Position numbers: made by a program
Shown: piece by piece, positions 36,001 through 39,000 of the stretch
Layout: the number at the start of each line of letters is the position of its first letter
Position numbering within the stretch: position 1 is the stretch's first letter
Source of the DNA: Shigella phage SfII
DNA length: 41,475 bases
Strand: one strand, 5' to 3'
Sequence record: NC_021857.1

Positions 36001-39000
36001 AAATAAATCTTTGACAGGGATTTTTAATAGAATGAAAAGTACTGCTGTGATAGAAGTAAGTAGAATTGGTGCTACCCAATCATATGCAGCTTTGCCGCTA
36101 ATACCTTTAATAAAAAGATATCCAAACGGCTTGCCTAGATGAGAGAAAACTGAAAGTATTGGCATAATAACCTCACATCAAATCTATCATTTTCACAACA
36201 AACTCTAGCTCAATTTTAACATATGAATCCTTCAGGCGCGAATTAAAGTTATCGATAATGCTTTTCTTAATAAATGTTTTTTCTAAATTATTAAGATTGA
36301 TGTTTGAGGTTTTGAAATCAACCTGCCTTGGTTTATTTGTTTCAGGATCTTGGAATTTAACCTTTAATTTATCATAACCACCATTCATTTTTTTATTGAA
36401 ATGAGATGCTACATTTTTAATCCATCCAATAACATTGTCACCATGATTTGGAAGTAATTTTAATGTACTTTCAGTCGGAATGTAAGGTGAGTTAACATCA
36501 GGAGCATTAATTGTTCCGAATTGATCCTTGACTAATATGACATCTGATAATCCTTTTTGGCTTATTTTATTAAAAAGCTCCTTGTCTAACATTCCTGTAA
36601 ATTCAAATATTGGTTTGTATCGTATTTTTACTTCTTTTTTTGATGTTGCAGAAATAACGTTAGTTGGATGTTTTGCGGTAAATAAGTCTTCATTGTCTTT
36701 CGCCACTTCAAAGAGAATTTTGTCTAAAAAACTATTTAACCGGGCCGTAGATACACCTGGGGTAGATGTACAAATCATATCATAGGTTCTTTTATTTCCA
36801 TTTAATGATATGACAACATAGGTAGAAACTTCATAGCCTTCACCTTGTTCATATTTTGGTTGGATTTCAACGCGTTCATTAGTATTTATATTTTTTACAA
36901 CGGTAGTACTTCCATTTTTATCAACACTATTAATAAGAAGGACAATATGCGTGGGTGAGTTATCTGGAAGTAAAGGATAAAGTTGTACATCTTGGAGAGT
37001 AACTACAATATTCCCAGAATCATATGAATGAACGAGTCCCTTTTGTTTAACAATCAATGGGGCAAGCATGTACATTTCCGGAACAGGACATATACACTGG
37101 GCTTTTACCTCTTGTGTTGCCTTGGTTCTAAACTTTGTGTCAATGGTCAGACTATGATGAGTAACGAGTCTTTCGCTAGCATTTAATTTTGCCATGAAAT
37201 CATCCGATTATGATTTTTCGATTTATTTGTTAATCTTACAAAAACGCTAACGCGTACGCAAAAATTATTGTATCGTGTTAAGAGTGGTTACTTCGCCACA
37301 CAGCTTAAACCCGCCGTCGAGCGGGTTTTGTCGTTTCTGGGGCTGGGGATTCGTTGGTCCTGGTCTATTCCGCAGTTATCCATTGGTTCGGCTTCTTTGA
37401 CGTTTCCGCTTCTAATTTGCTGTACATGATGTTCCCTCAATTTGCACCTGCTGTATCAGCGAGGTGAGAGATAACTACAAATGCCTCATAACCCAAATAC
37501 CTGGCTGGAGTTGTTCCAGAGCTGGTGGCGTGGAGACACACCGCTGGGCGCAGTGATTATGTCGATCGTTATGGCTGGCTTGCGCATTGCCTATTTTGGC
37601 GGTGGTGGTGGCTGGAAACGAAAAACGCTCGAGATTTTGCTCTGTGGTGCTCTGACGCTGACTTTTGCATCCGCTCTTGAGTATGTCGGATGGCCTAAAT
37701 CTCTTTCTGTTGCCATTGGTGGCGGTGTTGGGCTGATTGGTGTCGATGCAATTCGTGGGGCTGCAATGCGAGTAATCGGTAACAAATTTGGTAGCTCGAA
37801 GGAGTAATTTATGCAGGCACTAAATTCCCAGCGTAAAGCTTTCTTGGATATGGTTGCATGGTCAGAAGGAACGGATAACGGGCGACAACCGACACGTAAC
37901 CACGGTTATGATGTCATTGTCGGTGGTGAACTGTTTACTGATTACTCCGATCATCCTCGCAAACTTGTCACGCTAAACCCGAAACTCAAATCAACAGCAG
38001 CCGGACGTTACCAGCTTCTTTCCCGTTGGTGGGATGCCTACCGCAAGCAGCTAGGGCTGAAAGACTTCTCTCCCAGAAGCCAGGACTCCGTGGCATTACA
38101 GCAGATTAAAGAGCGTGGCGCTTTACCGATGATTGATCGCGGTGATATCCGTCAGGCAATCGACCGTTGCAGCAATATCTGGGCTTCACTGCCGGGCGCT
38201 GGTTATGGTCAGTATGAACATAAAATCGGTGACCTGATTGCCAGGTTTAAAGAGGCTGGTGGGGTGGTAAATGAAGTTGAGCTATAAGCTGATTATCGCT
38301 GCTTTCCTTTTAACTGTCGTCTGTTCTTTCATCTGGTCAACCAACCACTACTACAGCAAATATCAGCACGAAAAGAAACGTGCTGATGAGGCTGTACAAA
38401 ATGCCAAATCGGCAACTGCCATTACTAATAACGTCCTGCAATCACTACAAATCGTCAATACAGTACTGGAGGCTAACCAGCATGCAAAACAGCAGATCGC
38501 ACTGGAGTCACAGAGAACCCAGGCTGATATCAAAATGGCTTTTGCGAATGATGATTGCGCTGCCCGTCCTGTTCCTGCTCGTGCAGCTGAACGGCTGCGC
38601 CGGTACGCGGACAGTTTACGTACCAGTTTCGGCGGTACCACTACTAGCGAATCTGACCGCTGAAACTCCGCAACCAGCTATCCCCGACCCGCTGACATGG
38701 AGTGGGAGCCTGGATTTGAACGTAAGCCTGTTGTCGGCGCTGGCGTCTTGTAATAGGGATAAGTTAGACATTAGAAAGAGTGAGCACCTGCTTTCGGAGA
38801 AAAACTCTGCTGAAAAGTGAGGTTATATAGCTAGATCGGAATTGGCGATTCATATATCGGAAATAGTTGGTTAAGAATTTTCTGGAATGATTGTATGCTT
38901 TTACAACCTATATCGAAGTTCATGTTGGATGAATTTTATGCAAAACGTACAGCCGCTATCTCTGGTAACTACTTTAGTAATTTTGAGGTCTAATGGAGAG

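What the first reader, a model, noticed from the sequence alone, without database searches (positions are those of the whole stretch)
38271..38820. Overlapped (not embedded) spanin pair with atypical lipobox
The candidate o-spanin starts inside Rz in a different frame but extends about 160 bp past the Rz stop, unlike the fully embedded lambda Rz1. Its predicted lipobox is LNGC (Asn at -2), which is unusual, and the mature part is about 70 aa, long for an o-spanin.
Basis: seen in the sequence. Interest (0 to 1): 0.25.

Follow-up and report, generated by a model that had tools for sequence, protein, structure and literature searches.

The report
Ordinary overlapped phage spanin gene pair
This is the normal last part of a temperate phage's lysis cassette: two overlapping genes for the inner- and outer-membrane halves of a spanin, of an already catalogued family, whose only oddity is a rare but previously reported variant of the lipid-attachment motif.

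Summary
Rz (i-spanin, 38271-38663) is overlapped in the +1 frame by an ORF ending at 38820, 157 nt past the Rz stop, which carries LNGC followed by a 74-residue mature part.

It is a known thing. The o-spanin passes Pfam's LysC/Rz1 threshold. The DNA is 88-90% identical to the Shigella phage SfIV and SfV cassettes, where Rz and Rz1 are annotated. RefSeq names the identical protein "Rz1-like lysis system protein LysC".

- **Architecture:** in the curated spanin survey (Kongari 2018), overlapped is the commonest class (228 of 528), and SfV/SfIV are listed there in the Mu o-spanin family.
- **Length:** mature lengths are 74-76 aa for SfV, SfIV and P2; the overlapped-class median is 70. The length is ordinary.
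- **Lipobox:** LNGC is rare (4 of 120 homologue clusters; 8 of 5426 complete E. coli genomes). That survey already lists it as a deviant lipobox. The unrelated phiKZ o-spanin carries it and complements lambda RzamRz1am.
- **Origin of the Asn:** it is a single AGC-to-AAC change from LSGC, silent in Rz.

New detail: comparative evidence puts the start at ATG 38482, with GGAGG upstream. This gives a 112-aa precursor with a conserved 22-residue n-region. Interest is low.

The parts
37481..37807 (+). Holin, lambda S family (108 aa); first gene of the lysis cassette
   Evidence: PF05106 at 87.9 bits and TIGR01594 at 121.3 bits, both above cut-off; phrog_126
37811..38287 (+). Endolysin, lambda R-like (158 aa); its 3' end overlaps the Rz start by 17 nt
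   Evidence: phrog_90 endolysin at 5.7e-63; RefSeq names the identical protein a glycoside hydrolase family 24/104 protein
38271..38663 (+). i-spanin (Rz-like), 130 aa, with an N-terminal membrane anchor and a periplasmic domain carrying one Cys (C96)
   Evidence: phrog_214 Rz-like spanin at 4.3e-45; periplasmic domain 86% identical to SfIV Rz and 79% to SfV Rz; hydropathy peak at residues 3-21
38277..38339 (+). Predicted transmembrane anchor of the i-spanin (about residues 3-23)
   Evidence: Highest 19-residue Kyte-Doolittle mean of 2.17 starts at residue 3; boundaries are approximate
38468..38472 (+). Shine-Dalgarno GGAGG, 9 nt upstream of the o-spanin ATG, lying inside Rz
   Evidence: Sequence; a GAGG core is conserved in all 8 compared cassettes; the Mulock record (CPT locus tags) marks an RBS at this place
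38482..38820 (+). o-spanin (Rz1/LysC-like) prolipoprotein, 112 aa, in the +1 frame relative to Rz
   Evidence: PF23793 LysC at 49.3 bits against a cut-off of 27; phrog_456; 100% identical to a RefSeq protein named Rz1-like lysis system protein LysC; start supported
38482..38663 (+). Doubly coding stretch of 182 nt: Rz C-terminal 61 codons (with the stop) and the o-spanin signal peptide plus first mature residues
   Evidence: Coordinates; same 182-nt overlap as listed for SfV in Kongari Table S4
38482..38547 (+). Conserved 22-residue, net +4 n-region of the signal peptide (MQNSRSHWSHREPRLISKWLLR)
   Evidence: 18 of 22 residues kept against the Klebsiella phages, while the overlapping Rz frame keeps 12 of 22; mean top-residue frequency 0.85 in 57 long-form clusters
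38587..38598 (+). Lipobox L-N-G-C; the Cys at 38596-38598 is the predicted lipidated first residue of the mature protein, followed by Ala at +2
   Evidence: Sequence; position conserved in all 120 homologue clusters, L at -3 in 120 of 120 and G at -1 in 119 of 120
38596..38817 (+). Mature o-spanin, 74 residues, with 6 Pro and one further Cys (precursor C90)
   Evidence: 70-73% identical to the SfIV, SfV and Mulock mature o-spanins and 48% to Mu

Best explanation
This is the two-component spanin of an SfV/SfIV-like temperate E. coli phage, in the overlapped gene arrangement. It is the last module of a holin, endolysin, i-spanin, o-spanin lysis cassette. The i-spanin (38271-38663) is anchored in the inner membrane by its N-terminal helix and reaches into the periplasm. 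The o-spanin is translated in the +1 frame, most likely from ATG 38482 with a GGAGG 9 nt upstream. It is exported by a 38-residue lipoprotein signal peptide and is lipidated and cleaved at Cys39 of the LNGC box. [quoted passage not shown] The two proteins bind across the periplasm. Once the holin and endolysin have removed the cell wall, they fuse or disrupt the outer membrane and release the phage. What is shown here: the ORFs, family membership, synteny, selection on the +1 frame, and the position of the start. What is inferred from the lambda, P2, Mu and phiKZ work: export, lipidation, sorting, complex formation and membrane disruption. The Asn at -2 is a rare, tolerated single-nucleotide variant of the family's usual LSGC. 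It is not the sign of a different mechanism.
For: - Family hits. The o-spanin matches PF23793 LysC above threshold and phrog_456. The i-spanin matches phrog_214 at 4e-45. The holin and endolysin sit immediately upstream.
- Named relatives. The DNA is 88-90% identical to the SfIV and SfV cassettes, where Rz and Rz1 are annotated as spanins with the same geometry. RefSeq names the identical protein Rz1-like LysC.
- Survey placement. Kongari 2018 lists SfV and SfIV as 'ovl' in the Mu o-spanin family, with mature lengths of 74 and 75 aa.
- Identity to that family. The mature domain is 70-73% identical to SfV, SfIV and Mulock and 48% to Mu.
- Selection on the +1 frame. Substitutions against three diverged relatives switch from Rz third positions (15-18 of about 30) to o-frame third positions (8-9 of 13-15) exactly at ATG 38482. 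They stay o3-biased past the Rz stop.
- Start position. The +1 frame has stop codons just upstream of that ATG in relatives, and the ATG and GAGG are kept in 8 of 8.
- No competitor. This is the only lipoprotein-like ORF in 37400-39150.
- LNGC tolerated. The LNGC o-spanin of phiKZ, together with its i-spanin, fully complements lambda RzamRz1am. LNGC occurs in two separate lineages of this family and in 8 complete E. coli genomes.
Against: - Nothing has been tested biochemically for this protein.
- Asn at -2 falls outside the consensus [LVI][ASTVI][GAS]C quoted, and is found in only 4 of 120 homologue clusters.
- I could not run a signal peptidase II predictor such as LipoP or SignalP.
- The i-spanin scores just below Pfam's DUF2570 cut-off (23.2 against 26.6 bits).
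- NCBIfam models gave no hit for either spanin.
- A 38-residue lipoprotein signal peptide is long, and database records disagree on the start.
Confidence: 0.93

Rival explanations
1. It is the same spanin pair, but the o-spanin is translated from a downstream start: TTG 38542, ATG 38548 or ATG 38551. That would give an ordinary 15-18-residue signal peptide and an overlap of only 113-122 nt. The upstream 22 codons would not be translated.
For: RefSeq annotates a 90-aa form starting at the equivalent of 38548 in strain MS1679. Kongari's tables list the SfIV o-spanin as 93 aa, which fits the TTG. Sixty of the 120 homologue clusters were called in the short form. A short n-region is the textbook shape of a lipoprotein signal.
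Against: There is no Shine-Dalgarno sequence before 38542-38551, whereas GGAGG precedes 38482. The 22 upstream codons are better conserved in the o-frame (18 of 22) than in the Rz frame (12 of 22), with third-position-biased substitutions. The ATG form lacks any positive charge in its n-region. The Mulock record (CPT locus tags) and the SfV record use the long form. Both starts could be used; the mature protein is the same either way.
Confidence: 0.15
2. The LNGC allele is a crippled o-spanin. The Ser-to-Asn change blocks or slows lipidation and cleavage. It persists only because spanins are weakly selected in prophages, some of which are decaying.
For: Asn at -2 is outside the consensus and rare. 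In strain H1827/12 the same cassette sits in a truncated prophage remnant. The window's phage carries an IS insertion just downstream. The mutation is silent in Rz, so Rz does not select against it.
Against: The phiKZ o-spanin with the same LNGC box works in E. coli. LNGC arose separately in an E. coli lineage and a Klebsiella lineage. It is carried on more than 150 contigs (P0001 on 109 and P0002 on 44). The rest of the ORF is intact, and the window otherwise looks like a complete phage genome.
Confidence: 0.06
3. The +1 ORF is a chance open frame inside and after Rz, and not a gene.
For: None beyond the general fact that overlapping ORFs can arise by chance.
Against: It has a Pfam hit above threshold. 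There are 366 homologues at E<=0.001. Substitutions are o-frame third-position-biased, including in the 75 nt beyond Rz. The lipobox Cys is conserved in 120 of 120 clusters.
Confidence: 0.01

Closest known systems
Shigella phages SfV and SfIV, Rz/Rz1 (i-spanin/o-spanin)
   Same: Same cassette order and the same +1-frame overlap (182 nt in SfV). DNA is 88-90% identical. The i-spanin periplasmic domain is 79-86% identical and the mature o-spanin 70-71% identical. Mature lengths are 74-75 aa. The ATG and Shine-Dalgarno are conserved.
   Different: Their lipobox is LTGC; here it is LNGC. DNA homology stops at about 38741-38743, so the last 25 or so residues of the o-spanin differ.
Phage Mu i-spanin gp23 and o-spanin (Mu_55)
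   Same: [quoted passage not shown] Overlapped, +1 frame, and also a long signal peptide (lipidated Cys29). The shared motifs are PQPLTW...LL.AL.QCNRDK in the o-spanin and DxC..RPVPA.AA.RLR in the i-spanin.
   Different: Only 48% (o-spanin) and 34% (i-spanin) identity. The lipobox is LTGC. Mu pairs it with a SAR endolysin rather than a lambda-type holin and R endolysin.
Phage P2 LysB/LysC (prototype of the overlapped class; namesake of Pfam PF23793)
   Same: Nearly the same geometry: 146-nt overlap, 145 nt beyond, +1 frame, mature 76 aa. Same Pfam family by profile.
   Different: Pairwise similarity is marginal (33% over 63 aa, E of 0.009 against a four-sequence database). Its lipobox is CAGC. 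Kongari 2018 does not list it in the Mu o-spanin family.
Phage lambda Rz/Rz1
   Same: Same function and topology model, same cassette position, and the same holin and endolysin families upstream.
   Different: Rz1 is fully embedded in Rz, has a 40-aa mature part and a VVGC lipobox (from my own knowledge). I found no detectable sequence similarity of the spanins.
Pseudomonas phage phiKZ gp141/gp141.1
   Same: An overlapped spanin pair whose o-spanin has the same LNGC lipobox. It was shown to complement lambda RzamRz1am in E. coli.
   Different: An unrelated sequence family. The mature part is 100 aa, and the phage is a jumbo lytic phage.

Membership tests
Two-component spanin (i-spanin + o-spanin), overlapped class | Located in a lysis cassette, directly after the endolysin gene | tested here: met
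   Holin 37481-37807, endolysin 37811-38287, then Rz 38271-38663
Two-component spanin (i-spanin + o-spanin), overlapped class | The i-spanin has a single N-terminal transmembrane anchor and a periplasmic, largely helical domain | tested here: inconclusive
   Hydrophobic peak at residues 3-21. Helix and coiled-coil content was not computed here. Kongari's Table S3 lists one coiled-coil segment (about residues 30-61) in the 79-86% identical SfIV and SfV proteins.
Two-component spanin (i-spanin + o-spanin), overlapped class | The o-spanin has a lipoprotein signal: positive n-region, hydrophobic h-region, and a lipobox ending in Cys | tested here: met
   The n-region is net +4, the h-region MMIALPVLFLLVQ has a mean hydropathy of 2.42, and the box is LNGC. 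The box fails the strict consensus [LVI][ASTVI][GAS]C at -2 but passes a relaxed rule I wrote myself. Kongari 2018 names LNGC among deviant lipoboxes. No LipoP or SignalP run was possible.
Two-component spanin (i-spanin + o-spanin), overlapped class | No Asp at +2, so the lipoprotein is sorted to the outer membrane | tested here: met
   Ala at +2. The sorting rule itself is established knowledge of the Lol pathway.
Two-component spanin (i-spanin + o-spanin), overlapped class | The o-spanin gene starts inside the i-spanin gene in another frame and ends beyond its stop | tested here: met
   +1 frame, 182-nt overlap, 157 nt beyond; definition
Two-component spanin (i-spanin + o-spanin), overlapped class | Periplasmic Cys residues available for intermolecular disulfides | tested here: met
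   One periplasmic Cys in each subunit: Rz C96 and o-spanin precursor C90. Both are conserved in SfV, SfIV, Mulock and Mu.
Two-component spanin (i-spanin + o-spanin), overlapped class | Disrupts the outer membrane: complements a spanin-null phage | not testable with these tools
   Needs the lambda RzamRz1am complementation assay
Pfam PF23793 (Rz1-like lysis system protein LysC) | Score at or above the gathering threshold | tested here: met
   49.3 bits against 27, residues 13-76 of the 89-aa form on profile positions 3-64 of 69. All 120 listed homologues carry PF23793.
Kongari 2018 'Mu' o-spanin family | At least 40% identity over at least 40% of the periplasmic domain with members | tested here: met
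   70-71% over 63 of 74 aa with SfV and SfIV; 48% over 58 of 74 aa with Mu. APSE, D108 and ENT47670 were not compared pairwise as mature domains.
Pfam PF10828 (DUF2570), the family RefSeq uses to name the i-spanin | Score at or above the gathering threshold | tested here: not met
   23.2 bits against 26.6, so it is a borderline relative only. The PHROG Rz-like spanin profile phrog_214 matches strongly.
Lambda Rz1 type (embedded o-spanin) | The o-spanin gene lies wholly inside the i-spanin gene | tested here: not met
   It ends 157 nt after the Rz stop

The most novel reading that the evidence does not exclude
The 22-residue n-region of the o-spanin signal peptide has the motif M-x-x-S-R-S-H-W-x-H-R-E-P-R-x-x-S-x-x-L-L-R. 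It is as conserved as the mature domain and better conserved than the Rz residues encoded by the same DNA. It may therefore be more than a targeting signal. It could, for example, slow or time export and lipidation of the o-spanin, or couple its translation to Rz. The weak LNGC box might add to such a delay.
Probability: 0.1. Interest if true: 0.3.

Novelty: already known. Interest (0 to 1): 0.08.

Why it matters
It matters little for biology, because the pair behaves as a textbook overlapped spanin.

It has some practical value for annotation. Public records give this same gene three different starts. One RefSeq genome marks the intact i-spanin as a pseudogene, and another omits it. The frame-specific substitution analysis fixes the start at ATG 38482 for this subfamily.

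LNGC in this family adds a natural example, arisen twice, to the short list of lipoboxes with Asn at -2. The change costs nothing in the overlapping Rz frame, which illustrates how dual coding channels variation.

Tried and rejected
- **NCBIfam:** the scan of both spanins gave nothing useful.
- **Kongari supplementary tables:** I searched them for LNGC or LNG to learn which phages carry it. No text match was found; the relevant files were cut when stored.
- **Longest +1 ORF (GTG 38380, 146 aa):** rejected as the gene. Relatives have stop codons in that stretch, and substitutions there follow the Rz frame.
- **Alternative o-spanin candidates:** a scan of both strands of 37400-39150 gave only artefacts. 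These were VVNC inside the endolysin with a 14-aa tail, the second Cys of the same ORF, and a minus-strand CFAC.
- **Direct P2 LysC similarity:** only marginal in pairwise BLAST, so the link to P2 rests on the Pfam profile and on gene geometry.
- **Not run:** I did not use structure prediction or the large representative-protein search, because the identification was already unambiguous.

Full report
**What is in the sequence.** The region is the 3' end of a four-gene lysis cassette on the + strand.
- The holin (37481-37807) matches the lambda S family above curated cut-offs (PF05106 at 87.9 bits; TIGR01594 at 121.3 bits).
- The endolysin (37811-38287) matches phrog_90 at 5.7e-63.
- Rz (38271-38663, 130 aa) matches the PHROG Rz-like spanin family phrog_214 at 4.3e-45. 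It has a hydrophobic N-terminal anchor at residues 3-21.
- An ORF in the +1 frame runs through the Rz stop to TGA 38820, 157 nt further on. It contains LLVQ-LNGC, with the Cys codon at 38596-38598, followed by 73 more residues.

**Is the +1 ORF real, and where does it start?**
- It scores 49.3 bits on Pfam PF23793, 'Rz1-like lysis system protein LysC', against a gathering score of 27. It also matches phrog_456.
- It has 366 homologues at E<=0.001. All 120 listed homologues carry PF23793, and many are named Rz1 or LysC.
- I compared the DNA with seven related cassettes: SfIV, SfV, Salmonella phage 118970_sal3, and Klebsiella phages Mulock, ST405-OXA48phi1.2, RothC and ST512-KPC3phi13.5.
- In the 66 nt before ATG 38482, substitutions fall mainly on Rz third positions (15-18 of 28-31). 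The +1 frame there is not conserved (2-6 of 22 residues) and contains stop codons in the relatives.
- From ATG 38482 onward, substitutions fall mainly on o-frame third positions (8-9 of 13-15). The o-frame keeps 18 of 22 residues, while Rz keeps 12 of 22.
- The same third-position bias continues in the 75 nt beyond the Rz stop (11-15 of 18-23).
- The ATG and a GAGG core 9 nt upstream (GGAGG at 38468-38472 here) are present in all eight cassettes.
- The Mulock record (CPT locus tags) marks an RBS and start at the same place, and the SfV record uses the same start.

I therefore place the start at 38482. That gives a 112-aa precursor, a 38-residue signal peptide, a 74-residue mature lipoprotein, and a 182-nt overlap with Rz. 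The signal peptide consists of a 22-residue n-region with net charge +4, an h-region MMIALPVLFLLVQ, and the LNGC box. Shorter starts (TTG 38542, ATG 38548 or 38551) are used in some records. They lack a Shine-Dalgarno sequence and would give the same mature protein.

**What it is.**
- The 1.5 kb around the cassette is 88-90% identical to Shigella phages SfIV and SfV. Their Rz and Rz1 are annotated as i-spanin and o-spanin with the same geometry.
- Three complete E. coli genomes carry it at 99.9% identity. RefSeq calls the identical 112-aa protein (WP_001181631.1) 'Rz1-like lysis system protein LysC'.
- The mature o-spanin is 70-73% identical to those of SfV, SfIV and Mulock, and 48% to phage Mu's. 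The i-spanin periplasmic domain is 86%, 79%, 55% and 34% identical to SfIV, SfV, Mulock and Mu respectively.
- Both subunits keep the single periplasmic Cys and the family motifs.
- No other ORF in 37400-39150, on either strand, has a credible lipoprotein signal.

**Comparison with the curated survey** (Kongari et al. 2018, PMC6139136).
- Of 528 two-component spanins, 182 are embedded, 228 overlapped and 118 separated, so overlapped is the commonest class. P2 is its textbook example.
- SfV and SfIV are listed as 'ovl'. SfV's overlap is 182 nt, and their o-spanins are placed in the 'Mu' family with D108, ENT47670, APSE-1 and APSE-2.
- Periplasmic lengths in Table S2 are SfV 74, SfIV 75 and P2 76. 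For the 190 overlapped o-spanins listed, the range is 42-167, the median is 70, and 34% are 74 aa or longer.
- The length here is long only relative to lambda Rz1, which is 40 aa.
- P2 LysB/LysC (146-nt overlap, 145 nt beyond) and Mu (140 and 202 nt) have the same +1-frame layout.

**The lipobox.** Asn at -2 does fall outside the consensus [LVI][ASTVI][GAS]C.
- Among 120 homologue clusters the -2 residue is Ser in 78, Thr in 33, Ile in 5 and Asn in 4. Leu at -3 is invariant, and Gly at -1 is found in 119 of 120.
- The exact 60-nt allele occurs in 8 of 5426 complete E. coli genomes. About 350 genomes carry a cassette covering at least 80% of the 1.5-kb query.
- The nearest LSGC relative (P0003, locus L014, 91% DNA identity) has CTG AGC GGC TGC where the window has CTG AAC GGC TGC. 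This is one G-to-A transition. In the Rz frame it is GAG to GAA, Glu to Glu, and so silent. Against SfV and SfIV (ACC, Thr), the same nucleotide changes Rz Asp to Glu.
- LNGC also appears in a diverged Klebsiella lineage (P0066, P0075), so it arose at least twice.
- The motif is not new. Kongari et al. name LNGC among deviant o-spanin lipoboxes.
- The unrelated phiKZ o-spanin gp141.1 has LNGC, is predicted by LipoP to be an outer-membrane lipoprotein, and together with gp141 fully complements lambda RzamRz1am in E. coli (PMC12894885).
- Deviation is common in this protein class. P2 LysC's box is CAGC, and AWAC was validated experimentally.

**Mechanism.** These steps are inferred from the lambda, P2, Mu and phiKZ literature and are not tested here.
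- Late transcription expresses the cassette.
- The i-spanin inserts in the inner membrane with its N-terminus inside and its C-terminus outside.
- The o-spanin is exported, lipidated on Cys39, cleaved by signal peptidase II, and sent to the outer membrane, because residue +2 is Ala rather than Asp.
- The two subunits bind through their C-terminal parts and span the periplasm.
- After holin triggering and murein degradation, the complex brings the membranes together and breaks the outer membrane.

**Rivals.**
- A downstream start is possible, but it is disfavoured by the frame-specific conservation, and it would not change the mature protein.
- A crippled LNGC allele cannot be excluded without an assay. 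It is made unlikely by the phiKZ result, by recurrence in two lineages, and by its presence on more than 150 contigs.
- A chance ORF is excluded.

**Verdict.** The finding is real and correctly identified, but it is ordinary and already catalogued. The only mildly interesting residue is the unusually long and well conserved n-region of the signal peptide. It has no documented role.

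Noticed in passing
window 39101-40349 (approximate ends), within 38938-41049: A roughly 1.25-kb IS3-family element on the minus strand splits the S1-family (trypsin-like) peptidase gene that follows the lysis cassette. 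It has an OrfA with HTH_Tnp_1 (39976-40314) and an OrfB with an rve integrase core, itself split into two ORFs. Related prophages (L003, L004, L013) have the 861-nt peptidase gene intact. From memory the OrfA sequence looks like IS911; I did not check this.
   Followed up: partly
window 1-1676 and 40350-41475: The window's end and start are contiguous in a related prophage: L003 positions 4700-5825 continue into 5826-7501. The window therefore looks like one complete phage genome, opened just before the small-terminase gene. It is an SfV/SfIV-like contractile-tailed temperate phage, with tail sheath domains at 7817-9313.
   Followed up: partly
window 21888-24633 (minus strand) and 24895-26058: A gtrA / gtrB / type-specific glucosyltransferase cluster (PF04138, PF00535, PF14264) lies next to the tyrosine integrase. 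This is the O-antigen glucosylation (serotype-conversion) module typical of the Shigella Sf phages, here in an E. coli phage.
   Followed up: partly
window 35581-36165 and 36173-37195 (minus strand): Two opposite-strand genes (194 and 340 aa) sit between the Q antiterminator and the holin, the classic 'moron' slot. Neither has a Pfam family above threshold. Their function is unknown, and they are conserved in the 99.9%-identical E. coli prophages.
   Followed up: partly
window 38482-38547: The o-spanin signal peptide has a 22-residue n-region (consensus MQKSRSHWSHREPRLISKLLLR). It is as conserved across 57 homologue clusters as the mature protein (0.85 against 0.82 mean top-residue frequency). 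It is more conserved than the Rz residues encoded by the same DNA.
   Followed up: yes
L003 3872-4144, L013 20888-21083, L004 4149-4421 (equivalents of window 38271-38820): RefSeq annotation of this identical cassette is inconsistent. The intact i-spanin is flagged as a truncated pseudogene in strain TW10828 and is not annotated at all in H1827/12. The o-spanin is given as 112 aa in two genomes and 90 aa in a third.
   Followed up: yes
window about 38741-38820: Nucleotide homology to SfIV and SfV stops near 38741-38743, inside the o-spanin gene. The last 25 or so residues of the o-spanin and the downstream genes differ between relatives. This is a mosaic junction within the C-terminal tail.
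   Followed up: partly
L013 (E. coli H1827/12, 1019078-1030476): In this strain the same lysis cassette lies in a truncated prophage remnant next to tRNA-Thr and proA. It runs from the integrase through Q, the lysis genes, the S1 peptidase, HNH and the small terminase, and then breaks into tail-fibre fragments. The cassette therefore also survives in decaying prophages.
   Followed up: no
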